From Armatimonadota bacterium (GTDB lineage Bacteria; Armatimonadota; HRBIN16): 64,000 nucleotides of DNA. The notes beneath the pieces are model-generated. The model searched no databases. It was not told the DNA's origin and was given only the letters and a program-made list of their open reading frames with translations. Each line of letters begins with the position of its first letter. Position 1 is the first letter of the stretch. Below are positions 14,714 to 63,655 of the stretch, one piece after another. The stretch is taken from contig PSLZ01000006.1 in the NCBI GenBank assembly GCA_040289885.1, positions 37,211 to 101,210 on the forward strand, given 5' to 3'. The position numbers were made by a program, and so were the translations under genes.

Positions 14714-14812
14714 ATGGTCTCCACCCTCACTTCACTCGGCAGTGTGCTCTACATCTTGTTTGACGAAGCGGTTCAGGGATTCGTTCGTGTCGCTCCGCTA
14801 TGCTATCGCCCG

Positions 14813-19351: not shown

Positions 19352-19423
19352 CCTTCTCTCGGCTCAAATCTGCTCGGGATCGATTCCCCGTTCACGCAAG
19401 CGGTGCTAAGGCGGAAAGCCATC

Positions 19424-22120: not shown

Positions 22121-22142
22121 TTTGCGTACTCCCCTCCCGCTC

Positions 22143-24002
22143 TCATCGTAACAGGTTGCGCACCCGCACCTGTGTGGTTAGCGACATCAACAGCGGGTCG
22201 CCCGTTGTTGGGTCATACAGCTTGATGCTGATCGCCAGCGTGTATTGCGAGCGCGTCATGTAATCGACCTTCACCACATCGCTTTCGGTGTTCGCCTGCA
22301 CCGCGTAGGTGACGCGCAGAAGGTCGTAGGGTGTGCCATCACCGCGTGTGCCCGACGGTATCTGCCACAGTGCCCAGAACTCCACATAGCCCGTCTGCAG
22401 GGTCGGGTGTCCACTGCTGGGGCCCCGATAGTTGATGCGGTACTGGTTGGCCCCCGGCGTGACGTTCCATGGCACTCGGGTATACGGCACCAGGCGTGGC
22501 TCGGTGCCGGGCGGGGCGGTCTGGTCTGGTCCCCAGATTCGCTCCGAGCCGGGCACGATGGAAACCGACGCCAGCAGTTTCAAGGGGCTTTGCCGGTTGT
22601 TGGACGCGGTGTTATTGATGTCGGGTTCCGACAGGAGCAGGTATCGCCGTCCGCTCTCGTCCACCTGGGTGTTGCGGGCGAGATATTCGAACACCGGTCG
22701 TTCGCCGGGTCGGAACACCGCCACCGCTGGGATGGCGAAGTTAATTGTGCCCGAGCGCGGGTCGATGGTAAACGGCAGGTACGGATAGGGCGCGTCCAGA
22801 GAGCCGGGGTTGCGCTCCCACGAGCCATCCCCCTGCATCCACGGGTCGGGCAGGTTCGAGCAGACTCCTGGGTCCCACGTGCCCTCTTCGTAGCATCCTG
22901 CCGACTGCATCCGCTGATAGGCGGTTATATTGAACCGATAGGCATCGGCCGCGCCGCGTGCAACCACCAGTTCACCACCGAGATTGCCCGTCATATACAC
23001 GGAGGCGAACCCATTGCGGTAGACGGTGACCACGAACGGATAGCTCCATCCGCCCTTCTTGGTGGTATAGGCGGTGGGGACGGCATTGGGCACCTCGTTA
23101 ACTGCGTCGCCCAGTGTGGTGGGCACCGCCGGGTCGTCCGTGACCAGCCCGGGCAGGAACTGGATGAGCGGGGTGACCTGTACGATCTGCCCCTGTTGGT
23201 TATACTGCACGTTCACTAGGTCGATATCTTCCACTTCGGTGACTGGGCGGCTGACCTCCAGCCAGTTCTGCATGTAGGACTTGCCGTTTGGGGCGGGGCT
23301 GGTGTCGTAGAAGAAGCCCGGCTCGTCGATGATCGGCTGTCCGTTCGCATCCAGTTTGAACAATCGGGTGTTGGGCACAAACGCTCCGTTGCCATTGCGC
23401 TCGTACAACACGAACTGGGCGCGCCACAGGATATATGGGTTATCCACCGCCGCGGCGAGCAGTTGCTCGTTGCGGTTGCTGTAGGGCTTGCTGGGGTCGC
23501 GCCGGGCGATGAAGTAGCGCACGATCGTTCGCCCTGCCAGCACCGGCAGAGAAGGCGGTTTGCCCGTTCTGTAGTCTGGCGGCACGTAGTCACTGCCGTC
23601 GGTTGGGTCGGTAACGCCGGTGGCGTTCGGCGTGACACGCTCTGGTGGCACGAAGTCGATCTTGGTATAGGGCAGGTAGAAGGTGACCGGGCTTCCCTGT
23701 CGGTCCACTAAATCGAAGCGCAGGGTAGCGTCGTTCACGGGAGTGCTGGTGGTCAGGGGGTTCAGCACCCGCGAGTTGTCGAACACATAGGCGGCGTCGG
23801 CGATTTCGCGCGCGATGGTTTCCATCAGGTCGCGAGCGGTATCCTGCGCCTGCGCCACCCGCTGGACGCGCCGCGTGAAGTTAAAGCTCTGCAGCATGGG
23901 GCCCAGCAGTAGCCCCAGCATGATGGCGGTAATCGCCATCACCACCAGCAGTTCCACCAGTGTAAACCCTGCCCGGAACCTCATGTTGCCCGTGTCTTTC
24001 AT
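22143..24002 (-). CDS. Prepilin-type N-terminal cleavage/methylation domain protein (pseudopilin-like, 619 aa).
   Basis: ATG at 24000-24002 with RBS aggag: MKDTGNMRFRAG|FTLVELLVVMAITAIMLGLLLGP. This is a class III signal with Gly-1, Phe+1 and Glu+5. The ORF-track start at 24011 is a GTG three codons upstream. The rest is a large Thr/Pro/Asn-rich secreted domain. Confidence 0.75.
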   Translation of the reverse strand: MKDTGNMRFRAGFTLVELLVVMAITAIMLGLLLGPMLQSFNFTRRVQRVAQAQDTARDLMETIAREIADAAYVFDNSRVLNPLTTSTPVNDATLRFDLVDRQGSPVTFYLPYTKIDFVPPERVTPNATGVTDPTDGSDYVPPDYRTGKPPSLPVLAGRTIVRYFIARRDPSKPYSNRNEQLLAAAVDNPYILWRAQFVLYERNGNGAFVPNTRLFKLDANGQPIIDEPGFFYDTSPAPNGKSYMQNWLEVSRPVTEVEDIDLVNVQYNQQGQIVQVTPLIQFLPGLVTDDPAVPTTLGDAVNEVPNAVPTAYTTKKGGWSYPFVVTVYRNGFASVYMTGNLGGELVVARGAADAYRFNITAYQRMQSAGCYEEGTWDPGVCSNLPDPWMQGDGSWERNPGSLDAPYPYLPFTIDPRSGTINFAIPAVAVFRPGERPVFEYLARNTQVDESGRRYLLLSEPDINNTASNNRQSPLKLLASVSIVPGSERIWGPDQTAPPGTEPRLVPYTRVPWNVTPGANQYRINYRGPSSGHPTLQTGYVEFWALWQIPSGTRGDGTPYDLLRVTYAVQANTESDVVKVDYMTRSQYTLAISIKLYDPTTGDPLLMSLTTQVRVRNLLR

Positions 24003-24045
24003 CGGTGCCACTCCTATTTCACCCCTGATATGCTTTCCATTTCTG

Positions 24046-25881
24046 TTATTCCGCTTCGCGCGTCAGAATAGTTTCCACCTCATAGCGTTGCCAGCGATTG
24101 TTCTCCTTCCAGACCACACGAGCCTTAAACGAAGCCCCTTTCACCCCGCGCACCACATAGCCATAACTGTTGTAGGCAGACAGGTCCAGCGAAACCGCTG
24201 TAGGTTTCACGTCGCGAATATCCACATAGCACAGCGGTCGTCCCCCCACGTTCTCGGTACGAGTACTGATGCGCGCTAGCACCCCTCGCATGACGTCCTT
24301 GCCTAGCACGCTGTCGTTATAGAACACCTCGCCGAGGATGACCTGCTTGCCCGCATCGCACACGGGGAAGTAGATGCGCGAGGGAGAGCCGCCGTCCGCG
24401 CCGCCGCCGACGTAAAACTCGCGGTAGCTGAGCAGGTTGCCGTATCGCTCCCGGTACAGCTCGTAGGGCTTCAGCACCTGCACACCCCAGTCGCCGTCCG
24501 CTTGGTAGTAGAAGCGCAGAGTATGCCCCGCCAGCGTGGGGTCCACCACGTTCACGATACCATTACGGTAGTCCACCTGATACGAGCCGGTATCGTCTTG
24601 CCCCACGATGGGGTCGATGATTTGTCCGGTTTGCAGGTCCACCGCCACGAAGTCCGGTTGCTGGCGCACTGGGTCGCCCTGGGGCAGAGCGTTCCAGTTC
24701 ACCCCGCGAATAAGCCCTTCGTAGGTAGTCTGGTCATCCAGTTTATCGCCGCGCTTGCGCAGGAAGCGCAGGTTGAGTTTGACCTCGGTGGGCACGGTAG
24801 GCACTAATCGGTCTTCGCGGATGATGTGCCAGTCCAGCACAGTGTAATCGATATGCGCGGTCAACGGCACCACACCGCGAGCGGTGCGCTCGGTATAGTC
24901 GCGTCCCGCCGGGTTGAACAGGAGCACCCCCACATTGGCGTAGGGACCGATGTTGCCGTAAAGGATTTTGAACTCATAGGGGTCTTGCGACCACGCCTGC
25001 CCCAGCGGGATCAGGCGGAACTCACGGCTGACCAGCTCACTGCCCGGTCGCATCCGCCATCCCGATTCCAGGATGGGCTTGCCATCTGGTCCCGTGTAAC
25101 TACGCAGTTCGATCCGGACTGGCTCTCCCGTCAGCCCCACGACGTTGGGGATGGTCTTGGATACCGATTTGAGCTTCCACCCATCGTTGCCGTCGTAGTA
25201 GTCGTAAGAGATGGTGAAGTCGCGCGCATAGGGCGTCGGGTAGAACCAGAGGACCACGTCATCGAACGCGCCATCGTCGCTGGCATCGTAGTCGATGGCG
25301 TATTGATGTGGACCGCGCAGGGGTGGCGGGGCATCTTCTTGAGCGTTCCACAGCATTCGCACCATCGGTGAGCCGTAGACGTTGAGGTTGTTCAGCCGCC
25401 ACACCTGCGAGACCGGGTCGTAAAGCGGCTGGTCGACAAAGGGACCTGCGCTCAACACGTATACCGAGCCTTGTCCGACCATGGTGGGCACGGGGATAGG
25501 GATACGCACTTTCTCACCAACCACCCGGCGCCAGCGGTTAATGTCTGAGTAGTAATAGGCATCGATTCCCGGAGGCAGTGCGGGCGGCGCCAGGTTATCG
25601 GGGTGTGCGCCAACGTCGATCGCTTCGCCGGTGGTGCCGCCGTCGGAATAGGGCGCCAGCGCGAGGATGCCCGACGGCAGTGCGGTGGCGTTATTCTTCC
25701 ACCGTTCGATCTCCTGCTGAGCCAATCGGCTAGCGAACGAGCGGTTCTCCGCGGCGCGGGTGACAAAGAACCCGCCCGGGAACAGCTTCAGAATCACCAG
25801 AATACCGATGGTCAGCACGGCGATCGCCGCCAGCACCTCGATTAGCGAAAACGCGTAGATGTTTTGTTTTCTACCCATCAT
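24046..25881 (-). CDS. Prepilin-type N-terminal domain protein (pseudopilin-like, 611 aa) with Ala at -1.
   Basis: MMGRKQNIYA|FSLIEVLAAIAVLTIGILVIL has Phe+1 and Glu+5, but Ala rather than Gly before the cleavage site. It lies 34 nt downstream of the pilin-like gene. Confidence 0.7.
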   Translation of the reverse strand: MMGRKQNIYAFSLIEVLAAIAVLTIGILVILKLFPGGFFVTRAAENRSFASRLAQQEIERWKNNATALPSGILALAPYSDGGTTGEAIDVGAHPDNLAPPALPPGIDAYYYSDINRWRRVVGEKVRIPIPVPTMVGQGSVYVLSAGPFVDQPLYDPVSQVWRLNNLNVYGSPMVRMLWNAQEDAPPPLRGPHQYAIDYDASDDGAFDDVVLWFYPTPYARDFTISYDYYDGNDGWKLKSVSKTIPNVVGLTGEPVRIELRSYTGPDGKPILESGWRMRPGSELVSREFRLIPLGQAWSQDPYEFKILYGNIGPYANVGVLLFNPAGRDYTERTARGVVPLTAHIDYTVLDWHIIREDRLVPTVPTEVKLNLRFLRKRGDKLDDQTTYEGLIRGVNWNALPQGDPVRQQPDFVAVDLQTGQIIDPIVGQDDTGSYQVDYRNGIVNVVDPTLAGHTLRFYYQADGDWGVQVLKPYELYRERYGNLLSYREFYVGGGADGGSPSRIYFPVCDAGKQVILGEVFYNDSVLGKDVMRGVLARISTRTENVGGRPLCYVDIRDVKPTAVSLDLSAYNSYGYVVRGVKGASFKARVVWKENNRWQRYEVETILTREAE

Positions 25882-53954: not shown

Positions 53955-53986
53955 ATTTGAAAGTTATCAAATTATGGAAATATCAT
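53955..53986 (+). promoter_or_regulatory. AT-rich promoter/operator for the arsR-merA operon.
   Basis: TTGAAA-18 nt-TATCAT is sigma70-like. It overlaps an imperfect palindrome atttgaaagttatcaaat, a candidate ArsR/SmtB operator. It lies 15 nt upstream of the RBS ggaggtg. Confidence 0.4.
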
Positions 53987-54000
53987 ATGGAGGTGCAAAG

Positions 54001-54453
54001 ATGAGCAAGATGAAAGCACAAAACCAGCGAAGCCGTCAAATCCCGCTTTGCGAAATCTACAACCCGGATACTCGCAGGGCTGAGCGGGTTCGCGCCCTTT
54101 TGCCTGATGAAGAAAGTCTTCACGACACAGCACGTGTGCTCAAAGCCTGTGCCGATCCGGCACGTGTGAAAATCCTCTACGCGCTAGGGGAGTCGGAGCT
54201 ATGCGTGTGTGAGCTAGCGCATCTATTGGGGCTTTCTATGCCCACAGTTTCTTATCACTTGCGGATACTAGACCAGGCGAAACTCATCGAGTATCGCAAG
54301 CAAGGCAGACTGGTCTTTTATCGCTTGCGGGATGAGTGCCTGACCCAGCGCGTGCAGCAACTAGTGGAGCTTTTTCGGAAAGACAGATCACCAGAGCAAC
54401 CCCAAATACTCCAGGAATCTCAAATCACTGAGCAGCCCATCTTGAGGAGGTAG
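54001..54453 (+). CDS. ArsR/SmtB-family metalloregulator.
   Basis: ARVKILYALGESELCVCELAHLLGLSMPTVSYHLRILDQAKLIEYRKQGRLVFYRL is a winged helix-turn-helix with a CVC metal site. Confidence 0.8.
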   Translation: MSKMKAQNQRSRQIPLCEIYNPDTRRAERVRALLPDEESLHDTARVLKACADPARVKILYALGESELCVCELAHLLGLSMPTVSYHLRILDQAKLIEYRKQGRLVFYRLRDECLTQRVQQLVELFRKDRSPEQPQILQESQITEQPILRR

Positions 54454-54460
54454 CACAAAG

Positions 54461-56494
54461 ATGTTCAAGAGGCTGTTTTCCCTTCGCCGGAGCGTCTGGT
54501 CCGGAACATGGGCAGGATTGGGTGCAGTAGGGTCGGCTCTGCTCGCGTCGAGCTGCTGCACTCTGCCCATGTTATTGGGTCTGTTAGGGGCAGGGAGTGT
54601 AAGCATCAGCAACACTCTACTTCCGTACCGTCCTTACTTCATCGGGCCGACCCTTGTTTTGCTATCGGTCGCTTTCTACCTGACCTATCGTAAACCTCGA
54701 AAGACGCCGAACCCGGGGCAGGCAGCGGACGACAGTTGCGGTTGCGAGTCCGTGGAAGTTTGTTGCACGAGGAGTACAGGGGTTACTCGCCTCAGCAGAG
54801 CCGTTCTCTGGACAGCGACCGCTGTGGTGCTGGCTTCGCTCCTGTATCCCTATTACCCCTATCTTAAGAAGGGCTGGCAACCTACCATCAAGAAGCCAAT
54901 AAGTTCCGCTGCCTCGCGGCACACCCTCTCATTTCGCATTGAGGGCATGGATTGTGCCGCCTGCGCTTCTCATATCGAGCAAGCTCTGCGGCAGGTGCCG
55001 GGTGTGGAGAACGCCCAGGTGGACTTTGAATCGGGCATCGCATCAGTGGAATGGAGTGCTAGACCTCAGTCTCGTGTGATACCGGCAGAAAAAGAAACGG
55101 AGTTCGACCTGATGGTGATCGGGGGCGGTTCGGCAGGGTTCGAGGCTGCCATCAAAGCGGCAGAACTGGGCGCTCGAGTTGCTCTTGTTGAGGCGGGGAC
55201 TATTGGAGGTACCTGCGTGAACATCGGTTGTGTACCCTCCAAGACCCTGATCAAGGCGGCCGAAGTCTGCTATCGCGCGGCTTATCCGCACTTCGAAGGC
55301 TTGCCCATTTGCCCGACCCCAACCGACTGGCCGCGCGTGGTGCAACAGAAAGACGCTCTGGTAACCGCCCTTCGAGAGGATAAATATGTCCATGTGCTGG
55401 ATATTTATCCGGCCATCCGTTTGCTTCGTGGCAGGGCGCGCCTGACCAGCGAACGCACTGTCGAGGTCGACGGTGTTGCCTACCATCCTGACAAGATTAT
55501 CCTAGCAACCGGTTCCCATCCTTGGGTGCCACCGATCCCCGGCTTGAACGAGGCGGGGTATCTAGATAGCACTGATGTACTCAGCCTATCCACCCTGCCT
55601 GAATCCATGATAGTTGTTGGTGGAGGGGCTATCGGGCTAGAGCTGGAGCAACTTCTACACCGCTTTGGAGTGCAGGTGACAATCTTGGAGGGGCTTCCCT
55701 TCGTGGCGGGATTCACAGAACCAGAGATTAGCGAAGCGTTGACGCTTTATTTAGAAGAGGAAGGCATTCGCATCTGCACTAACGTGCGGATTCAACACGT
55801 CGAGCGCAAAGAGGGACGCTATTACGTCAAGACCCTCAGAGACGGTGAAACAGAGGTGTGTACCGCCGAGCAACTGCTAGTTGCAACGGGGCGACGCCCT
55901 ACTACCACAGGGCTCGGGCTGGAGAACGCCGGGGTGCAGATAGGGCAACGGGGGGAGATCCTCGTTAACGAATACCTGCAAACGAACAATCCCCATATCT
56001 ACGCCGCGGGCGATTGTATCGGCGACCCGATGTATGTTTATGTGGCGGCATACGCGGGTGGTTTAGCCGCTGAAAACGCCTTAACTGGAGCAGGGCGTGT
56101 ATATGACCTGAGCGCATTGCCTCACGTGGTTTTCACCGACCCTCAGGTTGCCAGCGTAGGGCTGACGGAAAGACAAGCGCAAGACAAGGGCTATCGGGTC
56201 AAGACTTCGACCCTACCTCTCAAGAATGTACCGCGCGCCATTGTGTCGCGGGATACCCGCGGGCTAATCAAACTGGTTGCCGAGGCGGACACGGAACGCC
56301 TTCTCGGGGCACACATACTCAGCGTTGAAGCAGGCGAGGTTGTGCAGGAAGCGGTGCTAGCAGTTCGCTTCCGTCTGAGCCTCAAGGACATCGTGGAGAC
56401 GTTCCATCCCTATCTGACTATGGTGGAAGGTATCAAACTGGCAGCCCTCACTTTCGAGAAAGATGTGTCCCGACTGTCTTGCTGTGCTACATAG
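54461..56494 (+). CDS. merA: Mercuric reductase fused to an N-terminal MerT-like membrane transporter domain and an HMA (MerP/NmerA-like) domain.
   Basis: Residues 1-140 carry three TM helices, with a vicinal Cys pair in TM1 (SSCCTLPMLLGLL) and a Cys cluster in the TM2-TM3 loop (DDSCGCESVEVCC), the MerT arrangement. Then an HMA domain LSFRIEGMDCAACASHIEQAL. Then FAD/NAD oxidoreductase with redox-active GGTCVNIGCVPSK and the C-terminal Cys pair ...SCCAT. Confidence 0.8.
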   Translation: MFKRLFSLRRSVWSGTWAGLGAVGSALLASSCCTLPMLLGLLGAGSVSISNTLLPYRPYFIGPTLVLLSVAFYLTYRKPRKTPNPGQAADDSCGCESVEVCCTRSTGVTRLSRAVLWTATAVVLASLLYPYYPYLKKGWQPTIKKPISSAASRHTLSFRIEGMDCAACASHIEQALRQVPGVENAQVDFESGIASVEWSARPQSRVIPAEKETEFDLMVIGGGSAGFEAAIKAAELGARVALVEAGTIGGTCVNIGCVPSKTLIKAAEVCYRAAYPHFEGLPICPTPTDWPRVVQQKDALVTALREDKYVHVLDIYPAIRLLRGRARLTSERTVEVDGVAYHPDKIILATGSHPWVPPIPGLNEAGYLDSTDVLSLSTLPESMIVVGGGAIGLELEQLLHRFGVQVTILEGLPFVAGFTEPEISEALTLYLEEEGIRICTNVRIQHVERKEGRYYVKTLRDGETEVCTAEQLLVATGRRPTTTGLGLENAGVQIGQRGEILVNEYLQTNNPHIYAAGDCIGDPMYVYVAAYAGGLAAENALTGAGRVYDLSALPHVVFTDPQVASVGLTERQAQDKGYRVKTSTLPLKNVPRAIVSRDTRGLIKLVAEADTERLLGAHILSVEAGEVVQEAVLAVRFRLSLKDIVETFHPYLTMVEGIKLAALTFEKDVSRLSCCAT

Positions 56495-56613: not shown

Positions 56614-58086
56614 CTACAGACTGCGGATAAACCGCTCCGCTTCTTTCTCGTAGGTGCGGAAGGGGTTGCGCAGTTCCAGCTGCCGCCCCTTGTCCACGTA
56701 GACCATATCCCAGTCCACGATATACGCCCGGTTGCGCGAGGCAAGCAGGTGCTGAATCGCTCGGCTACGCCCATAGGCGCGCGTGTTGTCTGGCGGGTTG
56801 ATGGTGGCGTTCTGGATGTCCTCGTCGGTGACGAGGCGTTGAATCAGCCCCGCCTCCACCAGCCCGTAGTATAGCCCGCGTGACGGGTCGGTGTTGTGGT
56901 ACTCCATGTCGAGGCTGAACATGATGTCGTCGTGCCAGCTCAGCCCCTCTTGCTGACGGAAGGTATCCAGCAGTTTGCGCTTCGCCACCCAGTCTAGGCG
57001 GTCATCCAGGCTCATGGGGTCCAGCTCCAGCGCATCCAGCACATATTCCCACTCACGCAGGGTCCAGTCGGTATCCGCATCGCGCCCGGCGAGGTGCTCC
57101 TTGGCGGTCTGCAGGTAGATACGCTGGAGGTCTACCGCGCGGATGGTGGAGCCGTCGTGCCGGCGCACCACCCATTTCCATTTCGGGTCGCGGCTCACGG
57201 AGCGCAGAGCCTCCAGCGGGTCGGCAAGGCGCACATCGGGCTTAATGAGATTGCGCTCCAGCAGGTCAAGCACCAGGCTGGTGGTGCCGATCTTGAGTGC
57301 AGTAGCGTATTCGCTCATGTTGCCCTCGCCGAACAGGATGTGCAGGCGATGCATGCTGTTATACGAATAGTAGCTGTCCCACTTGGGGTTGATGATGGCG
57401 CGGTTAAAGCGCACGCGCGAGGAGATGGTCTTCACGATGTGGTCAGCGCGTTGGGAGAGCTGGAAATCCACCGTAGGGTCGATCTCCACCGCGTAGAACC
57501 GGCTGACCCACACGTAGTCCATCTCGTGCTCACCGAGGTCCATGATGTTGTTAGAGAAGTCGTTGTAGTTGAGGCGATGTCCGCCCACGCGCCCCGACCC
57601 GGCGAAAATCTGTCGCGTGACCAGAAACGGCAGAAGGTTATACAGGGAGTCCAGGAAGTAGCGGTCTTCGATGCTGACCAGGTAGTTCTCGTGACAGCCG
57701 AAGGTGTGCCCGCCGAAGTGGTCTACCGCATTGTTATAGAACGAGACCCTGTCCTGCCATCCCAAAGCCTGCAGGGCTTCCTGCAGGATGCGTTGACCGG
57801 CTTTCTCATGCGCCACGATGTCGGCGAGGCGCGAGCACTCGGGGGTGGCGTACTCCTCGTGGTCTCCCACAGCGTCGATGTACAGTCGCCCCCCATTGAC
57901 CAGGAAGCCACCGCCGCGTGCTGGCTCGAAGGCAAAATCCCGGCTGTGCAGGTCAATCAGCCCCCGGCGCAGGCGGTAGAACACGCAGTCCTTGACCTTT
58001 TCCACCACCCGCTCGGGTCTGCCCACGCTCTCGTCTCGCACGAGGCATCCGAACTCTGTTTCAATACCGAAGATACGGTTTTCCAT
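56614..58086 (-). CDS. pafA: Pup--protein ligase PafA.
   Basis: MENRIFGIETEFG...NGGRLYIDAVGDHEEYATPECSRLADIVAHEKAG... is the PafA/Dop carboxylate-amine ligase fold. It is shorter than the dop paralog and lacks the WDY...DARGF Dop loop. It sits in the canonical position downstream of prcA. Confidence 0.75.
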   Translation of the reverse strand: MENRIFGIETEFGCLVRDESVGRPERVVEKVKDCVFYRLRRGLIDLHSRDFAFEPARGGGFLVNGGRLYIDAVGDHEEYATPECSRLADIVAHEKAGQRILQEALQALGWQDRVSFYNNAVDHFGGHTFGCHENYLVSIEDRYFLDSLYNLLPFLVTRQIFAGSGRVGGHRLNYNDFSNNIMDLGEHEMDYVWVSRFYAVEIDPTVDFQLSQRADHIVKTISSRVRFNRAIINPKWDSYYSYNSMHRLHILFGEGNMSEYATALKIGTTSLVLDLLERNLIKPDVRLADPLEALRSVSRDPKWKWVVRRHDGSTIRAVDLQRIYLQTAKEHLAGRDADTDWTLREWEYVLDALELDPMSLDDRLDWVAKRKLLDTFRQQEGLSWHDDIMFSLDMEYHNTDPSRGLYYGLVEAGLIQRLVTDEDIQNATINPPDNTRAYGRSRAIQHLLASRNRAYIVDWDMVYVDKGRQLELRNPFRTYEKEAERFIRSL

Positions 58087-58165
58087 AGACCTGCACCTCC
58101 GCGATAGCGATTTCCGAATAGGTTTCGTCAAGTATGACGTCGCGAGCCGCCGCCCCCACCTCCAT

Positions 58166-58185
58166 CCTCCCCGCGGGCGGGGAGG
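58166..58185. other. Perfect 9-bp GC hairpin in the prcA-pafA spacer.
   Basis: cctccccgc gg gcggggagg. It lies between the prcA stop (58237) and the pafA start (58086). Confidence 0.5.
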
Positions 58186-58236
58186 AGGTTTTGGGCTCGG
58201 TATCTGCCTTGCCCTCCGGCTCCGTCGTTGGGCGCA

Positions 58237-59007
58237 TCATACTGGCAGAGCGGGACGGACTTCCTCTTCCTTCAGCAAACGGAACTTGCGCTCCCGCTTG
58301 GTGAAGCGGTCCAGAATCGCCGCCTCGACCTGCAGTTCCTCCATCTGTTCTTTCAGGAAGGCTACGATGCGTTCCTCGCTCAGGCTGTGCGCTCCCTCTT
58401 CCTCTATCTGCGCCTCGGTTGCCCACAATCTGCCAACCGCCCACGCACGCAGGGCACGCTGTATCGCCGTCTGTAGGTCGGGCATGCCTTCGGCATCTTC
58501 GGGAACGAGCTGGCGCACCATCTGCTCTTCGGCTTCGGGAGTGCCTGCCAATGCCGCTGCCCAGTTGAGCGACACGAACTCGCCGTCGTAATTCAGCGTG
58601 TAGAACAGGTCCTCTTCGGGCTTTCTGCCCATCTCGGCGAACAGCGCACGCACCACAAACGGCGCATTCAGCACGTCCCCAAACGCCCGCTTCACCCCCG
58701 GGCTGATAGCGAAACCGACCACCCGCTGGATGGTCACATCATCGGGACTGCGGGCGTAACCCTCCTGATGCGCGAAATCGATCGCCCCCACGCGGATGAT
58801 CTCCAGGTCGCTCTGGTTGCCCAGCCCCGCGAACATCAGCCGGTCGTAAATCTCGAATATCTTGCGCTGGGTGCGGCGGAGCGTTAGAAGCAGTACCCCG
58901 CCGTCGTAGCTGATGCCGGCGACGGGACTACCGTCTCTGAGCCGCTCCTCGATATATTCCGTGCGATGGCGCACGCTTTCGTTGAAATCGTAAGGGGTAT
59001 AAACCAT
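58237..59007 (-). CDS. prcA: Proteasome alpha subunit.
   Basis: MVYTPYDFNESVRHRTEYIEERLRDGSPVAGISYDGGVLLLTLRR... Confidence 0.85.
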   Translation of the reverse strand: MVYTPYDFNESVRHRTEYIEERLRDGSPVAGISYDGGVLLLTLRRTQRKIFEIYDRLMFAGLGNQSDLEIIRVGAIDFAHQEGYARSPDDVTIQRVVGFAISPGVKRAFGDVLNAPFVVRALFAEMGRKPEEDLFYTLNYDGEFVSLNWAAALAGTPEAEEQMVRQLVPEDAEGMPDLQTAIQRALRAWAVGRLWATEAQIEEEGAHSLSEERIVAFLKEQMEELQVEAAILDRFTKRERKFRLLKEEEVRPALPV

Positions 59008-59112
59008 TCTCCGGTTCTTCCTCCCGACCTCTGCCCCGTCTCTTCCGCCTAAAGCGGAAGGAAGCCCCTTGCTTGCGGTAGGAACGGGGGAGGTGCTGTT
59101 GTCAAGGGTGGT

Positions 59113-59895
59113 TTACAGTTTCAGGTTCTTTCTGATTTCAGCCAGTTGCTCTTCGCTGATTTCCAATATTCCATCGGCGGTAACGGCTCGCGCGATGGGC
59201 AGTACCTTCTCGATGCCCGCCGTTGCCGAGTCGAGGTCGGCGGCGATGTCCAGCAACAGCAAAGACTCGCGCAGAGCCTCTTCTATCGTCATCTCGTGGA
59301 AGGGTCCCTTCGTCTTCAGGATATAGTCGAACACGCCCCGGATACGCTCGGAGCCAGAGCCAGCCGCGCCGAACTCCACGCTCTCGAAGCGCGCGCCCAT
59401 GCCGTCGTAGAAGAAGATGCGCCCTTCGCCGCGCTCGAGGTCATAAGCGGAGACCACTGGGATGAACATGCCGATCCCTTGCAGAGCCATGCTGAGGTTG
59501 CCCGCCAACGCGCGCGATACCTCCGCCAGTTTGCCCTCCAGGCTCATCTCCTGCAGTTGGGTGCGTGCATAGTATTTGAACGAGTGCTGGAGGTAACGCA
59601 CAATCTCCATCGCCCGCGCGTAGGAGCCTGCGATGGCGATCAGCGTGTAGTCGTCCAGGGGCAGAATCTTCTCCGCGCGGTCGTACATAATGGCGTTGGC
59701 TGAGGTGGCGCGCCGGTCACCGACGTTGAGCACCCCCTCCCGGTACTTCAGCGCGATGACGGTGGTACCATGCGTTTCGCGCAAAGATACCTGAGCGTGT
59801 TGCGCGGGAACAGGTTCCGGTTCCCGCCACAGCCCGCGCGCCCGCAACAGCGTCATGAAGTCGCCGCTGGTGTTAGCGTTCAGAGGTTCACCCAC
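59113..59895 (-). CDS. prcB: Proteasome beta subunit with propeptide.
   Basis: GTG start. The propeptide ends ...RETHG|TTVIALKYREGVLNVGDRRATS, with the catalytic Thr. Confidence 0.85.
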   Translation of the reverse strand: MGEPLNANTSGDFMTLLRARGLWREPEPVPAQHAQVSLRETHGTTVIALKYREGVLNVGDRRATSANAIMYDRAEKILPLDDYTLIAIAGSYARAMEIVRYLQHSFKYYARTQLQEMSLEGKLAEVSRALAGNLSMALQGIGMFIPVVSAYDLERGEGRIFFYDGMGARFESVEFGAAGSGSERIRGVFDYILKTKGPFHEMTIEEALRESLLLLDIAADLDSATAGIEKVLPIARAVTADGILEISEEQLAEIRKNLKL

Positions 59896-59898
59896 GGT

Positions 59899-60087
59899 CT
59901 ACTCTCCACTACGCTGGCGATATCGTCGCGCCTGGTCGGGGTCCACCCGCTTCATCCGCTTCAGCAGGTCGTTGACGTCCGGTCGGCTGACCTTCGGCGT
60001 GGTGGGTCCCCCTTCCTCGCCGCCCTTGCGGGTGATCGGGTCGGAAGGAATGGTTCGGGTTAATCGGTCATCTGCTTGCCACTGCAT
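59899..60087 (-). CDS. pup: Prokaryotic ubiquitin-like protein Pup, an atypical variant ending -SGE.
   Basis: 62 aa, low-complexity: MQWQADDRLTRTIPSDPITRKGGEEGGPTTPKVSRPDVNDLLKRMKRVDPDQARRYRQRSGE. It has a DDLL..M helix-like segment and a C-terminal Glu, and sits exactly between dop and prcB. Its first 28 nt overlap the dop 3' end. Confidence 0.6.
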   Translation of the reverse strand: MQWQADDRLTRTIPSDPITRKGGEEGGPTTPKVSRPDVNDLLKRMKRVDPDQARRYRQRSGE

Positions 60088-61631
60088 GGCTGGTTTCCTC
60101 CTTCTGCTTCATGCTTGCGCGAGGCGTGCAGTTCGCGAAAGGTGTTGACGAACTCGGTGAGATTGTGCACCTTCGCTAGTTTCTGGATCTTTTGCGGCAC
60201 GCGCTGGGTCACCCACTCGCGCAGGTCTAAGGTAACCACCTGCTCGCCGAAGGTGAGTATCACCCGGCTCCAGGTGATACCGCTGATCGCCTGCGCGTAG
60301 CGCTCCACCAGCGTGCCCCGCACCCACGCCCGGGTGCTGGTCGGCGGATGAAGCATCGCGCGCTCGATATCTTTATCTGTTACTACGCGCCTCACCGCTC
60401 CCATTTGTTCCAGACCCGCGAACAGCCCGTCTTGCGGGTCTATACTATGATACGCCAAATCCAGGCTTTGCACAAGAGGTTCTTTCCATGTGACGCCCTC
60501 GCTTTGGATGAACTGCTCCAGCAAGAGCCGCTTGGCGACCCAGTCCAGGCTATCCGCCAACGCTTGCGGGTCGCGCTCGAGGGCGTCCAAAGTGCTCTCC
60601 CACGCCAGCAACAGCCACTGCGTTTCGGTGTTAGTGTGTGCAAACCTCTGCTGGGCTTCGCGCAGGTACAGACGCTGTATCTCGACAGCAGGCACTCTGC
60701 GTCCATCCTCTAGCTCCACTTCCCACTTCCAGTCGGGGTCGCGCGAGAGCCGGCGGATGGTTTCCACCGGGTTGCGAACGGCGATGCCCGGTTGCCAGCC
60801 CGTTTCGATTATCTCTGTCACAAGGCGGGTTGCACCCACCTTCAGTGCGGTGGCGTACTCGCTCATGTTGGCGTCGCCGCAGATCACGTGTAGTCTACGG
60901 TAGCGTGAAGGGGTGGCATGAGGTTCGTCGCGCGTGTTGATAATCGGTCGCTGGTAGAGGGTGTCCACGCTCGCTTCCACCGAGAAGAAGTCCGCCCGTT
61001 GGGAGATCTGGTAGGGCACATCGCCGAAAACGCCGGGGGTTTCCACCCCCACCTTGCCTGCCCCCGCATACAGGATGCGCGTGACGAAGAAGGGCATCAT
61101 GCCGCGGATGATCTGCTCGAAGGGCACACTGCGGCGCATCAGGTAGCCCTCATGACAGCCGTAGCTGGCGCCGTGGAAATCGGTGTTGTTCTTGTAGATA
61201 TGCACCTTCAGCCCTGTGCGCTTCATGTACTCTTGCGCGCAGTGCCAGACGATGCGCTCGCCTGCACGGTCATGTGCCACCAGCTCGCGCAGGCTGACGC
61301 ATTCGGGGGTGGAGTACTCAGGATGCCCGTGGTCGTTGTAGAGGCGCGCGCCGTTGGGTAGCACACGGTCACTACGGGTCTCTCCCGACAGGTTCGCGGT
61401 GGAGGTTCCTTCAGCGTCGTACTGAGCGTCCACGGGGTCGGTCTGCAGGTACTCCACGTGGAAGCCGCGAGCGTCCTTGCGCGGGTCCTCCCGCCGATAG
61501 TCCCAAGAGGTGGCAAAGGCAGAGGCGGAGTAGCCGCGCACCACCTCTGCCGCTTCGAACACCAGCTCTGAGGGGTTTTTGCCCTCGATATACAGTCCGT
61601 ATTCCGTCTCCAGCCCAACCAGACGCTGCAT
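60060..61631 (-). CDS. dop: Depupylase/deamidase Dop.
   Basis: MQRLVGLETEYG. A Dop-specific loop SWDYRREDPRKDARGFHVEY matches, from my recollection of the Mtb sequence, Dop WDYEVESPLRDARGF. LPNGARLYNDHGHPEYSTPEC and YKNNTDFHGASYGCHEGYLM. Confidence 0.8.
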   Translation of the reverse strand: MQRLVGLETEYGLYIEGKNPSELVFEAAEVVRGYSASAFATSWDYRREDPRKDARGFHVEYLQTDPVDAQYDAEGTSTANLSGETRSDRVLPNGARLYNDHGHPEYSTPECVSLRELVAHDRAGERIVWHCAQEYMKRTGLKVHIYKNNTDFHGASYGCHEGYLMRRSVPFEQIIRGMMPFFVTRILYAGAGKVGVETPGVFGDVPYQISQRADFFSVEASVDTLYQRPIINTRDEPHATPSRYRRLHVICGDANMSEYATALKVGATRLVTEIIETGWQPGIAVRNPVETIRRLSRDPDWKWEVELEDGRRVPAVEIQRLYLREAQQRFAHTNTETQWLLLAWESTLDALERDPQALADSLDWVAKRLLLEQFIQSEGVTWKEPLVQSLDLAYHSIDPQDGLFAGLEQMGAVRRVVTDKDIERAMLHPPTSTRAWVRGTLVERYAQAISGITWSRVILTFGEQVVTLDLREWVTQRVPQKIQKLAKVHNLTEFVNTFRELHASRKHEAEGGNQPCSGKQMTD

Positions 61632-61641
61632 GGGTTACCGC

Positions 61642-63342
61642 CTAGACGATGTTGCGTCGGCTTGCAGATTGCCGTTCGCGGTCCTGCGGGCGAATGGGGC
61701 GTACGTCCGCCACGTTGTCCGGCTCGTAGTCCAGCAGTTTCAGCCAGTCCTCCTGCGAGTCGGACTTGGGGAAGATTTCGCTCTCCTTGTACTCCGTGCG
61801 GATAGCCATCTGCAGGTCCGCTAGCGAGATACCGCTGTCCTCGGCGCACTCGATGGCGCGTTTGATGGCGTAGTCCTTCGCCCGGTCCACTACCGACTTC
61901 AGCAGGGCGCCGCTGACCAGGTCGCGCCAGTAAAGCGTCTCCACCGAGCCGTTGCGCAGATACACCTGCACGAACTCGGTTTCGGGATGCTTGCGCCACA
62001 GGTATTCGATGGCGCCCTCCAGCAGTGCCTCGCGCGCCGCCTCTTCCGAGCCGTGTTCGTGCACTGTCGCCGGGTCCAGCGGGATATTGGGATGCAGGTA
62101 GATCGCCAGAATGTCCCGCGATGCCCGCTTGTCCGGACGTGCCACCTTCACTTTGCGGTCGATGCGTCCGGGGCGCAGTACGGCGGGGTCGATGTAGTCA
62201 GGGCGGTTGGAGGTGAGCATCACCACCACGTTCTCCAGCGACACCAGCCCGTCCATCTCGGCGCAGAATTGCGGCACCACCGTGTTCGAGATGTGCGTGA
62301 ACCTGCCCGAGTTACGCACGCGCAGGATGGACTCGGCTTCGTCGATGAAGATGAAGACCAGATGCCCTTCGCGTGCCTTTTCGCGGGCGGCGGCGAAGAT
62401 TTCACGCACCATGCGCTCGCTCTCGCCCAGCCACATGTTCAATATCTTGGGACCGCTGATGTACATGAAGTACTCGCGCACATCGCGGTTGAGTTGCTTG
62501 CGGTATTCGTGGGTCAGATTGTAAGCGGTGGCTTTGCCGATCAGCGTCTTCCCACAGCCGGGGGGACCGTAGAGCAGGATGCCCTTGATCGGCTGTTTCT
62601 CGAACTTGCGGAACAGCTCGGGATGGAGCAGTGGCAGTTCGATAGTATCACGGATGACTCGGATGGCTTCTTCCTGCCCGCCGATGGCGCTCCAGGGGAT
62701 TTCGGGAACCTCTTCGAAGTAGTAGTCGCGTGCCTCACGCTGGGCGAAGTGCTCCAGAGCTACTTTCAAGTTCGGCTCCATGCGCACCTCATCGCCCGGC
62801 TTGATGGTCACGTCCGCCAGTTCGTGTCCGCGCAGGACCAGCCGTCCCGACATGCCCTGGGGGTCGGATGCCACGCGCAATCGCCCGTCCTCCAGGACCT
62901 CCTGCACTTTGACGATAGGTCCCTGGGGATGATACCCTAGGTCACCCACTACGGCGAAAGCCTCGTTGATGCGCACGCGTGTGCCCACCTTAAGCGTGCT
63001 GGCGTCCATTTGGGGATCGATGTTCGCATAGTACTCGGTGTCGCCAACTGCGATCATGGCAATGCCTTCGGCGGGCGAGCCTAAATACACGCCGATACGG
63101 TTCGCCGGAGAGGTGAGCTTTTCATAGACCTGCTCGTACTCCTGCAGTGCCTTTTGCGCCTCTTGAAACTGTTTCTCGTCCACCTCCAGCTGATGGCGTA
63201 ACAACAGCAGGTAGTTGAGGAGCCGAGCGTCCTGCGGTGGACGAGCGCGGAGGATTTCGTCAAGGAGCGTTAGCGCACGCAGGGAGGTCTCCGGCGGCTG
63301 GAACTCTGCGTATTTGTCTTCGTCATAGCGGTCGCGCTTCAT
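61642..63342 (-). CDS. arc: Proteasome-associated AAA ATPase ARC/Mpa.
   Basis: N-terminal coiled coil, OB-fold region, Walker A GPPGCGKTLIGKA, ...IFIDEAE... The C-terminus ends ...RERQSASRRNIV, with no GQYL. Confidence 0.85.
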   Translation of the reverse strand: MKRDRYDEDKYAEFQPPETSLRALTLLDEILRARPPQDARLLNYLLLLRHQLEVDEKQFQEAQKALQEYEQVYEKLTSPANRIGVYLGSPAEGIAMIAVGDTEYYANIDPQMDASTLKVGTRVRINEAFAVVGDLGYHPQGPIVKVQEVLEDGRLRVASDPQGMSGRLVLRGHELADVTIKPGDEVRMEPNLKVALEHFAQREARDYYFEEVPEIPWSAIGGQEEAIRVIRDTIELPLLHPELFRKFEKQPIKGILLYGPPGCGKTLIGKATAYNLTHEYRKQLNRDVREYFMYISGPKILNMWLGESERMVREIFAAAREKAREGHLVFIFIDEAESILRVRNSGRFTHISNTVVPQFCAEMDGLVSLENVVVMLTSNRPDYIDPAVLRPGRIDRKVKVARPDKRASRDILAIYLHPNIPLDPATVHEHGSEEAAREALLEGAIEYLWRKHPETEFVQVYLRNGSVETLYWRDLVSGALLKSVVDRAKDYAIKRAIECAEDSGISLADLQMAIRTEYKESEIFPKSDSQEDWLKLLDYEPDNVADVRPIRPQDRERQSASRRNIV

Positions 63343-63517
63343 CTGTCATCCTCCCCTGCCACCCGACGCGAGTCGATAGCCGTCAGGTGCGTATTGATTA
63401 TACCCGAACGGTACATCTTTCGGAAGCCCTTTTTGCCCGCAGAAAACAGAGAATCGCTAAATGACTGGAAAAATTGGCGTGTGCCGGCTCGGCATCCGCC
63501 TCGCCCTCCAGTTTCTC

Positions 63518-63655
63518 GTCACCCTGATCGTCAGCGAAGGGTCTCTTTCTTTCGTCACCCTGAGCGCCAGCGAAGGGTCTCTTTCTTTCGTCACCCTGAG
63601 CGCCAGCGAAGGGGCTCAAAAACGAGATGCAGAGCTGGCGCTCAGCATGACGTGA
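63518..63655. repeat. Three tandem copies of a 36-nt unit (gtcaccctgagcgccagcgaagggtctctttctttc; the first copy is degenerate), followed by the inverted-orientation copy of the hairpin repeat family.
   Basis: Copies at 63518-63553 (gtcaccctgatcgtcagc... variant), 63554-63589 and 63590-63615 (truncated). Then ctcaaaaacgagatgcagagctggcgctcagcatgac, the reverse complement of 519-557. No spacers separate the units, so this is not a CRISPR array. Confidence 0.75.

What the first reader, a model, noticed from the sequence alone, without database searches (positions are those of the whole stretch)
56614..63342. Complete Pup-proteasome locus with atypical Pup C-terminus and an ARC lacking the GQYL docking motif
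The order arc-dop-pup-prcB-prcA-pafA is canonical. Dop is identified by the WDYRREDPRKDARGF loop. The 62-aa Pup candidate ends ...RYRQRSGE, not GG(Q/E). The ARC/Mpa ATPase ends ...SASRRNIV, with no GQYL in any frame. In mycobacteria that motif is required for proteasome gate opening. A terminal Glu means no deamidation is needed, so Dop would act purely as depupylase. The Ser-Gly-Glu terminus and the GQYL-less ARC suggest this non-actinobacterial system engages its ligase and proteasome differently. The pup start lies 28 nt inside the dop 3' end, implying translational coupling.
Basis: partly seen in the sequence, partly recalled or inferred. Interest (0 to 1): 0.55.

Follow-up and report, generated by a model that had tools for sequence, protein, structure and literature searches.

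The report
UBact-proteasome operon of an Armatimonadota bacterium
This is an ordinary, complete copy of the already described UBact-proteasome gene cluster (the Gram-negative counterpart of the mycobacterial Pup-proteasome system); the only point I could not find in the searchable literature is that its unfoldase carries a conserved tyrosine-free tail where mycobacteria have the GQYL docking motif.

Summary
Six co-directional minus-strand genes at 56614-63342 encode an ARC/Mpa-like ATPase, a Dop-like enzyme, a 62-aa modifier ending RYRQRSGE, 20S beta, 20S alpha and a PafA-like enzyme. The modifier gene overlaps dop by 28 nt.

The "atypical Pup" is not atypical. It is a full-length member of the curated UBact family (Pfam PF20513, NCBIfam NF033388; Lehmann et al. 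2017). All 120 homologues inspected end RSGE or RSGQ, and 478 species genomes encode a relative. The gene is under strong purifying selection.

The GQYL-less ARC end is neither an error nor unique to this window. All 120 closest ARC homologues, and those in the related loci of Armatimonadota and Latescibacterota, end in a conserved R-R-x-[I/V]-[I/V] pentapeptide after a variable linker. A Nitrospirota UBact operon has an ARC ending RTIE. The proteasome alpha-subunit lysine that binds activator C-termini is invariant.

The locus is a new member of a known kind. It most likely works like the Pup-proteasome system, with a Tyr-less tail possibly replacing GQYL. No step has been shown biochemically for UBact in the literature I could search.

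The parts
61642..63342 (-). ARC/Mpa-like proteasomal AAA+ unfoldase, 566 aa: N-terminal long helix (39-77), two OB domains, an AAA module, a small C-terminal beta-grasp-like domain and a flexible tail
   Evidence: Pfam AAA, Prot_ATP_ID_OB_N and Prot_ATP_ID_OB_C. TIGR03689 scores 452 bits, below its 504.75 cut-off. Residues 59-550 align to M. tuberculosis Mpa 77-587, E 1e-97. AF2 model has mean pLDDT 77 and the tail 560-566 falls below 50.
61645..61659 (-). ARC C-terminal pentapeptide R-R-N-I-V, the conserved Tyr-less tail in the position of mycobacterial GQYL
   Evidence: In 120 homologues plus the window, the last five positions have entropy 0.6-1.8 bits and the preceding linker (-6 to -12) 2.6-3.0 bits. 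Tails seen: RTVI 53, RNII 15 and others, none with Tyr. The same holds in 36 loci with complete ARC genes.
60060..61631 (-). Dop-like deconjugase/deamidase, 523 aa, with a Dop-loop
   Evidence: Pup_ligase Pfam E 3.6e-161. TIGR03688 scores 479.7 bits (cut-off 492.3) against PafA model 370.9. Best PDB hit is Acidothermus Dop 4b0r, 387 bits, against PafA 255. It has 29 extra N-terminal residues relative to the paralogue.
61461..61505 (-). Start of the Dop-loop, WDYRREDPRKDARGF (Dop residues 43-57)
   Evidence: Aligns to WDFEEENPLRDARGF of Acidothermus Dop. A roughly 40-aa Dop-loop defines Dop against PafA (PMC7947786).
59899..60087 (-). UBact, 62-aa ubiquitin-like modifier ending RYRQRSGE; net basic C-terminal half
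   Evidence: PF20513 E 2.6e-24, 85 bits (GA 27.8). NF033388 scores 89 bits (cut-off 35). 120 homologues all end RSG[EQ]. Purifying selection.
60096..60101 (-). GGAGGA Shine-Dalgarno for UBact, inside the 3' end of dop
   Evidence: Read directly from the sequence, 8 nt before ATG 60087.
59113..59895 (-). 20S proteasome beta subunit PrcB, 260 aa, with a 43-aa propeptide and catalytic Thr44 (codon 59764-59766)
   Evidence: Pfam Proteasome E 1.2e-24. TIGR03690 scores 152 bits, cut-off 191.9. Residue 44 aligns to residue 1 of the mature Rhodococcus and M. tuberculosis beta chains.
58237..59007 (-). 20S proteasome alpha subunit PrcA, 256 aa; Lys49 (codon 58861-58863) is the activator-binding pocket lysine
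   Evidence: TIGR03691 E 3.8e-22, below its cut-off. M. tuberculosis PrcA is the best PDB hit. K49 corresponds to Mtb K52 and is invariant in 71/71 related PrcA. Role of K52: bioRxiv 10.1101/249060.
56614..58086 (-). PafA-like enzyme, putative UBact ligase, 490 aa from ATG 58086 (the mechanical ORF starts at TTG 58131)
   Evidence: Pup_ligase Pfam E 2.4e-129. It lacks the Dop-loop and has the PafA-like 'DAVGDHEEYATPEC'. HMM assignment is ambiguous: PafA 313.6 vs Dop 302.4 bits, and PDB Dop 250 vs PafA 216 bits. Homologues align from residue 16.

Best explanation
The region is a complete UBact-proteasome operon of an uncultured Armatimonadota bacterium. By homology it should work like the actinobacterial Pup-proteasome system. 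The PafA-like enzyme (gene 6) would activate the gamma-carboxylate of UBact's terminal Glu with ATP and join it to substrate lysines. The ARC hexamer would bind the helical, basic C-terminal half of UBact with its acidic N-terminal coiled coil, unfold the conjugate and feed it into the 20S core (PrcA/PrcB). The Dop-like enzyme (gene 2) would remove UBact, and in SGQ-encoding relatives it would first deamidate it. Because UBact here already ends in Glu, no deamidation is needed. ARC most likely docks on the alpha ring by inserting its flexible C-terminal tail, with the terminal carboxylate on the invariant PrcA Lys49. The tail uses a conserved basic-aliphatic pentapeptide (R-R-x-I/V-I/V) instead of the Tyr-containing GQYL/HbYX motif. 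Shown here: gene identities, order, conservation, tail conservation and conservation of the pocket lysine. Inferred: conjugation chemistry, which paralogue is the ligase, and docking through the tail.
For: HMM identities of all six genes. UBact family membership above curated cut-offs. The RSG[EQ] end is present in 120/120 homologues. In the 80 loci, 78 end RSG[EQ] and the two Latescibacterota end RTG[EQ]. The same gene order is found in 32 related loci of Armatimonadota and Latescibacterota and in a Nitrospirota contig. UBact shows 13-27 nt differences but only 0-2 amino-acid changes against eight relatives. ARC aligns with Mpa over coiled coil, OB, AAA and beta-grasp, and the AF2 architecture has a low-confidence tail. 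The tail pentapeptide is conserved behind a variable linker. PrcA K52-equivalent is invariant and its role is established in M. tuberculosis. [quoted passage not shown] PrcB Thr44 aligns to the mature N-terminal Thr.
Against: No UBact conjugate, ligase activity or ARC-20S complex is reported in any paper the library search returned. The founding paper is not in the library. Every enzyme scores below the NCBIfam equivalog cut-off built on actinobacterial sequences. Gene 6 is as close to Dop as to PafA by score, so the ligase assignment rests on architecture and synteny. The tail lacks the penultimate Tyr that is central to HbYX/GQYL gate opening. The Nitrospirota UBact-locus ARC ends RTIE, which is not aliphatic, so no single tail motif covers all UBact lineages.
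Confidence: 0.85

Rival explanations
1. The ARC does not dock on the 20S through its C-terminus. The conserved RRx[IV][IV] tail would have another role, such as autoinhibition, partner binding or oligomer stability. Degradation would use another activator or another ARC surface, or ARC would act as a stand-alone unfoldase, as in proteasome-less actinobacteria.
For: ARCs of actinobacteria without proteasome genes lack the docking motif (PMC3511204). In mycobacteria the beta-grasp domain also contacts the 20S, and Mpa alone is a poor activator in vitro (title and abstract of PMC9599533 as listed). The tail has no Tyr. In Armatimonadota the PrcA residue aligned with Mtb R26, the Tyr partner, is never Arg. 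Many Fimbriimonadales and Abditibacteria loci do not have ARC next to the proteasome genes.
Against: ARC is co-operonic with prcBA in 32 loci. The layout of folded domain, variable linker and conserved extreme C-terminus is the layout of known docking tails. The pocket lysine is invariant. No other ORF in the window carries such a tail.
Confidence: 0.3
2. The locus is a canonical Pup system, and the SGE and RRNIV ends result from sequencing or frame errors.
For: None found.
Against: Both ends are reproduced in independent assemblies: 120/120 UBact homologues end RSG[EQ] and 120/120 ARC homologues lack GQYL. No alternative frame gives GG[EQ] or GQYL. The ORF gives no Pfam Pup hit at E <= 0.01.
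Confidence: 0.01
3. UBact is not a covalently conjugated tag. It would be a small proteasome- or ARC-associated cofactor or regulator that merely occupies the pup position.
For: No conjugation has been demonstrated in the literature I could search. Its sequence is unrelated to Pup apart from the terminal G-[E/Q], and it is basic rather than acidic.
Against: The invariant terminal Gly-Glu/Gln, with E/Q interchange among close relatives, is exactly what a carboxylate-amine ligase/deamidase pair needs. It is strictly linked with two Pup_ligase-family paralogues.
Confidence: 0.07

Closest known systems
UBact conjugation-proteasome system of Gram-negative bacteria (Lehmann, Udasin, Livneh, Ciechanover 2017, BBRC 483:946; Pfam PF20513, NCBIfam NF033388)
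   Same: The modifier matches the family model end to end. It has the signature ...RMKRVDP..A[RK][RK]YRQR[ST]G[EQ] end and the same operon (ARC, Dop-like, UBact, PrcB, PrcA, PafA-like). Relatives in the same phylum are annotated by NCBI as 'ubiquitin-like protein UBact'.
   Different: Nothing substantive. It is a further species, about 85-87% nucleotide identity to the nearest public MAGs. The 28-nt dop/UBact overlap is specific to this genus-level clade; other relatives overlap by 4-20 nt or are separated.
Actinobacterial Pup-proteasome system (Mpa/ARC, Dop, Pup, PrcBA, PafA)
   Same: Same gene order and same enzyme families. Dop-loop in the upstream paralogue. ARC shares the coiled coil, double OB, AAA and beta-grasp domains. 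The beta subunit has a propeptide and Thr1. The alpha pocket lysine is conserved. The modifier's terminal Glu/Gln alternates as in PupE/PupQ.
   Different: The modifier has no Pup Pfam hit, ends SGE rather than GGE/GGQ, and is basic where Pup is acidic. The ARC ends RRNIV rather than GQYL. All enzymes fall below the NCBIfam equivalog cut-offs. The PafA-like protein is equidistant from Dop and PafA.
HbYX/GQYL C-terminal gate-opening motifs of proteasome activators (PAN, Rpt subunits, Mpa, Bpa/PafE)
   Same: A flexible C-terminal tail follows a folded domain, the extreme C-terminus is conserved, and the alpha-subunit lysine that binds the terminal carboxylate is conserved.
   Different: The penultimate residue is Ile or Val rather than Tyr. 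Two conserved arginines sit at -5 and -4. In Armatimonadota the PrcA residue aligned with Mtb R26, the Tyr partner, is D/S/A/E/G. From my own memory, not tested here: the HslU C-terminus (...SRFIL), which activates HslV, is a closer look-alike.

Membership tests
UBact (PF20513 / NF033388) | Matches the family HMM above the curated cut-off | tested here: met
   PF20513 scores 85.2 bits against GA 27.8. NF033388 scores 89 bits against cut-off 35, covering model positions 3-54 of 54.
UBact (PF20513 / NF033388) | C-terminus R-[S/T]-G-[E/Q] | tested here: met
   The protein ends RYRQRSGE. 120/120 homologues end RSGE or RSGQ. Latescibacterota and Nitrospirota end RTG[EQ].
UBact (PF20513 / NF033388) | Encoded between a Dop-like gene and the proteasome subunit genes, with a second Pup_ligase-family gene and an ARC | tested here: met
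   Gene order in the window, in 32 related loci and in Nitrospirota L081.
UBact (PF20513 / NF033388) | Covalent conjugation to substrate lysines | not testable with these tools
   Needs biochemistry or proteomics. No such report appeared in the searched library.
Canonical Pup (Pfam Pup family) | HMM match and a GG[E/Q] C-terminus | tested here: not met
   UBact is the only Pfam hit at E <= 0.01. The protein ends SGE.
Mpa/ARC proteasomal ATPase (TIGR03689) | Coiled coil, two OB domains, an AAA module and a C-terminal beta-grasp domain | tested here: met
   Pfam domains, alignment to Mpa 77-587 and the AF2 secondary structure.
Mpa/ARC proteasomal ATPase (TIGR03689) | Score above the equivalog cut-off | tested here: not met
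   452.2 bits against cut-off 504.75.
Mpa/ARC proteasomal ATPase (TIGR03689) | C-terminal GQYL (HbYX-type) 20S docking motif | tested here: not met
   The protein ends RRNIV, and 120/120 close homologues have no Tyr-containing end.
Dop (TIGR03688) | Pup_ligase fold with the roughly 40-aa Dop-loop | tested here: met
   The WDYRREDPRKDARGF motif aligns to Acidothermus Dop. The protein has 29 extra residues relative to the paralogue. Definition from PMC7947786. Its score of 479.7 bits is just under the cut-off of 492.3.
PafA (TIGR03686) | Closer to PafA than to Dop, and above the equivalog cut-off | tested here: not met
   313.6 bits against cut-off 551.3, while the Dop model gives 302.4. PDB Dop 250 bits against PafA 216.
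PafA (TIGR03686) | Absence of the Dop-loop | tested here: met
   Gene 6 has a short N-terminal region, and its 'YIDAVGDHEEYATPEC' resembles the PafA spacing.
PafA (TIGR03686) | Alpha-helical 'alpha-loop' region and ligase activity | not tested
   Gene 6 has a 29-residue insertion at about 172-200 relative to gene 2. I did not establish whether it corresponds to the alpha-loop.
Bacterial 20S proteasome (TIGR03690 / TIGR03691) | Beta subunit with a propeptide and catalytic N-terminal Thr; alpha subunit with the activator-binding Lys | tested here: met
   Thr44 aligns to residue 1 of mature beta chains. K49 corresponds to Mtb K52 and is invariant in 71/71. Both HMM scores are below the equivalog cut-offs.

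The most novel reading that the evidence does not exclude
In UBact-bearing Armatimonadota and Latescibacterota, and in other ARC-like ATPases ending x-[N/S/G]-[I/V]-[I/V], the conserved arginine-rich, aliphatic C-terminal pentapeptide is a tyrosine-free proteasome docking and gate-opening motif. It would functionally replace HbYX/GQYL and would have co-evolved with an alpha-ring pocket that has lost the Tyr-binding arginine.
Probability: 0.4. Interest if true: 0.5.

Novelty: new member of a known kind. Interest (0 to 1): 0.25.

Why it matters
The value is mainly as a correction. The "atypical Pup" is UBact, a family described in 2017 and already built into Pfam and NCBI annotation, so the window adds one more species to at least 478 species genomes with the system. 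UBact systems still appear to be biochemically uncharacterised. Even so, the survey made here gives a concrete, cheap hypothesis for anyone who reconstitutes one. The ARC partner never carries GQYL but has its own conserved tail, and the alpha-ring lysine is retained. This predicts a Tyr-independent way of docking an unfoldase on a 20S core. If the relatives from hot-spring MAGs (Bacterium HR16) are thermophiles, their proteins could be good material for structural work.

Tried and rejected
1. Frame or sequencing error as the source of the odd termini: rejected. All three frames at the ARC 3' end were read, and the only GQYL in 56-64 kb is internal to an antisense ORF. Independent assemblies give the same ends.

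2. Strict co-variation between loss of the tail Tyr and loss of PrcA R26: only partly supported. The aligned residue is never Arg in 71 Armatimonadota, Abditibacteriota and Latescibacterota PrcA. The Nitrospirota PrcA keeps Arg although its ARC ends RTIE. In addition, a basic residue sits one position earlier in most Armatimonadota sequences, so the alignment could be off by one.

3. Other proteins in the window with the same tail, which would indicate extra activators sharing a docking motif as Mpa and Bpa share GQYL: none among 331 ORFs of at least 80 aa.

4. Apparent run of five PafA paralogues in L042: these are consecutive fragments of one frameshifted gene.

5. Rfam scan of the window: no hits. 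The promoter and terminator scan gave nothing above shuffled expectation.

6. Literature on ARC tails in UBact or non-actinobacterial systems: nothing found. The founding UBact paper is not in the library, so I could not check whether it comments on the ATPase C-terminus.
Full report
**Observation**

The ORF map shows six co-directional minus-strand genes that fill 56614-63342 almost without gaps.
- A 566-aa AAA protein at 61642-63342, ending SASRRNIV.
- A 523-aa Pup_ligase-family protein at 60060-61631.
- A 62-aa ORF at 59899-60087, ending RYRQRSGE.
- Two proteasome-family proteins at 59113-59895 and 58237-59007.
- A second Pup_ligase-family protein at 56614-58131.

Pfam and NCBIfam confirm each identity. 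The first protein has AAA plus both proteasomal-ATPase OB domains. The second scores best against the Dop model (479.7 bits, against 370.9 for PafA). The two proteasome proteins score best against the bacterial beta and alpha models. The last protein scores marginally better as PafA (313.6) than as Dop (302.4).

The small ORF starts at ATG 60087, 8 nt after a GGAGGA. It overlaps the dop stop codon (60062-60060) by 28 nt. None of the three frames at the ARC 3' end gives a GQYL or any x-Tyr-x terminus.

**What the small ORF is**

The 62-aa protein is not an aberrant Pup. Its only Pfam match at E <= 0.01 is PF20513 "Prokaryotic ubiquitin-like protein UBact" (E 2.6e-24, 85 bits, gathering score 27.8). 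It also matches the NCBIfam equivalog NF033388 "ubiquitin-like protein UBact" over the whole model (89 bits, cut-off 35). The family was named by Lehmann, Udasin, Livneh and Ciechanover in 2017. That reference is quoted in PMC5751360; the paper itself is not in the library.

A search of 5.8 billion proteins returned 266 relatives. The best 120 all carry the UBact Pfam domain, and several are labelled "ubiquitin-like protein UBact" from Armatimonadota or Chthonomonadales. All 120 end RSGE (83) or RSGQ (37). The preceding stretch DLLKRMKRVDPDQARRYRQR is nearly invariant.

A scan of one genome per species found 478 genomes encoding a relative. Against the eight nearest genomes (locus 85-87% nucleotide identity), the gene differs at 13-27 of 189 nucleotides. 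Almost all of these are third-codon positions, with only 0-2 amino-acid changes. That is strong purifying selection on this frame.

**Source organism and locus conservation**

The nearest loci come from Armatimonadota MAGs: Bacterium HR16, a Chthonomonadia bacterium, and several labelled "Armatimonadota bacterium". Homology to them ends exactly at the pafA stop (56614) and about 120 nt upstream of ARC. The operon is thus a conserved block in variable surroundings.

Among the 80 fetched loci, 32 show the full order ARC-Dop-UBact-PrcB-PrcA-PafA, including two Latescibacterota. In the others, either the contig ends or, in Fimbriimonadales and Abditibacteria, ARC and sometimes Dop lie elsewhere. 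A Nitrospirota contig found through its ARC has the identical six-gene order, with a UBact ending RTGE.

The dop/UBact overlap is 28 nt only in the eight closest relatives. Other Armatimonadota overlap by 4, 17 or 20 nt or have short spacers. Tight coupling is common, but the exact overlap is clade-specific.

**The ARC C-terminus**

This is the one part of the finding that is not simply a known label.

The protein aligns with M. tuberculosis Mpa from the coiled coil through the OB domains, the AAA module and the C-terminal beta-grasp region (residues 59-550 against Mpa 77-587, E 1e-97). An AlphaFold model built on 35 homologues reproduces this layout: a long helix at 39-77, OB strands at 82-199, the AAA module, and a small C-terminal domain. 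The model ends in a low-confidence tail.

All 120 closest homologues (67-91% identity) lack GQYL. They end in R-R-[T/N/S]-[V/I]-[I/V/M]: RTVI in 53, RNII in 15, and so on. Counted from the C-terminus, the last five positions have entropies of 0.6-1.8 bits. The seven before them have 2.6-3.0 bits, and the conserved domain resumes at KLIDYEPENVxxVKPIRP. This arrangement of folded domain, variable linker and conserved extreme C-terminus is the same as that of Mpa and its GQYL.

The same tail class occurs in all 36 complete ARC genes in the related loci, including Latescibacterota (RQGVI). In an exhaustive search of 1.84 billion cluster representatives, ARC-like proteins fall into two groups. One ends G-[Q/H]-Y-[L/F]. 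The other ends x-[N/S/G]-[I/V]-[I/V]; one such protein sits next to proteasome genes, two Pup_ligase genes and an acidic Pup-like 69-aa ORF ending KKDAQ. The Nitrospirota UBact-locus ARC ends NLRTIE. Absence of GQYL therefore seems general for UBact loci, but there is no single replacement motif.

**The proteasome side**

PrcB has a 43-residue propeptide, and Thr44 aligns with residue 1 of the mature Rhodococcus and M. tuberculosis beta chains.

[quoted passage not shown] The motif is required for gate opening (PMC12288473). In this PrcA, K49 aligns with K52 and is invariant in 71 of 71 related PrcA sequences. The residue aligned with R26 is Asp here and is never Arg in those 71 (D 23, S 14, A 14, E 11, G 5).

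That fits a pocket which still takes a C-terminal carboxylate but no longer needs a tyrosine. The evidence is weak for two reasons. A basic residue sits one position earlier in most sequences, and the Nitrospirota PrcA keeps the arginine.

**The two Pup_ligase paralogues**

Gene 2 carries the Dop-loop. Its WDYRREDPRKDARGF aligns to the Acidothermus Dop loop, and it has 29 extra residues in that region relative to gene 6. The loop is the accepted structural discriminator of Dop from PafA (PMC7947786).

Gene 6 lacks the loop and has a PafA-like DxVGxHxEY spacing. By score, however, it is as close to Dop as to PafA. Calling it the ligase is therefore an inference from architecture and position, not from orthology. 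Its real start is probably ATG 58086, since homologues align from residue 16.

**Mechanism**

I conclude that the locus works like the Pup-proteasome system, with UBact as the tag.
- The terminal Glu means the tag is ligation-ready.
- The frequent E/Q interchange among close relatives mirrors PupE/PupQ in actinobacteria (PMC3511204). It implies that the Dop-like enzyme of the lineage remains a deamidase as well as a deconjugase.
- UBact's C-terminal half is net basic, where Pup is acidic, and the ARC coiled coil here is rich in Glu and Gln (read). This suggests a charge-reversed recognition interface. That is inference only.
- The ARC tail most likely still docks in the alpha-ring pockets through its carboxylate.
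- The main rival is that it does not dock, and that the tail serves another purpose, as in proteasome-less actinobacteria whose ARCs lack the motif.

**Novelty and score**

The system, its name, its signature terminus and its occurrence outside Actinobacteria are established. The earlier observation that the Pup of the second Leptospirillum system "even lacks the terminal GGE" dates from 2012. Pup_ligase homologues in Armatimonadetes are mentioned in PMC7947786.

This window is a further, unremarkable member. I found no paper in the searchable library that discusses the ATPase tail in these systems. I could not read the founding paper, so I treat the conserved Tyr-less tail as a modest, possibly unreported detail, not as a discovery. 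Interest is 0.25.

Noticed in passing
window 63516-63617: A 36-bp tandem repeat (2.8 copies, 95% match; unit TCGTCACCCTGAGCGCCAGCGAAGGGTCTCTTTCTT) lies in the intergenic region upstream of ARC. The core occurs nowhere else in the window.
   Followed up: partly
window 53974-56494 (+): An ArsR-family regulator is followed by a 677-aa single-ORF fusion of a MerT-like membrane domain, an HMA metal-binding domain and a MerA-type pyridine nucleotide-disulphide oxidoreductase. It converges on the pafA 3' end. This flank is not shared with the eight closest relatives.
   Followed up: partly
window 7880-25881 (-): A run of very large ORFs (2277, 1512, 898, 622 and 611 aa) is mostly without Pfam hits. 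The first has a Golvesin_C domain and the 622-aa one an N-terminal prepilin-type methylation motif.
   Followed up: no
L086 2252-9307: A differently ordered proteasome locus: two proteasome-family genes, an ARC ending DDNII, two Pup_ligase genes, and a 69-aa acidic Pup-like ORF ending ...EEEKKDAQ with no Pfam hit. It looks like a third modifier variant with neither a GG[EQ] nor an SG[EQ] end.
   Followed up: partly
L009-L027, L036, L041, L055 and others: In Fimbriimonadales and Abditibacteria the ARC gene, and in some Abditibacteria also dop, is not adjacent to UBact-prcBA, although ARC homologues with the same tail exist in those groups.
   Followed up: no
window 56614-58131: The mechanically listed PafA ORF starts at TTG 58131. 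The Pfam match and all homologues begin at MENRIFGIETEFG, so ATG 58086 is the likely start.
   Followed up: yes
L052: A contig labelled 'MAG: Janthinobacterium lividum' carries an Armatimonadota-type Dop-UBact-PrcB-PrcA-PafA block (68% UBact identity). This probably reflects a binning or labelling error, not a proteobacterial UBact.
   Followed up: no
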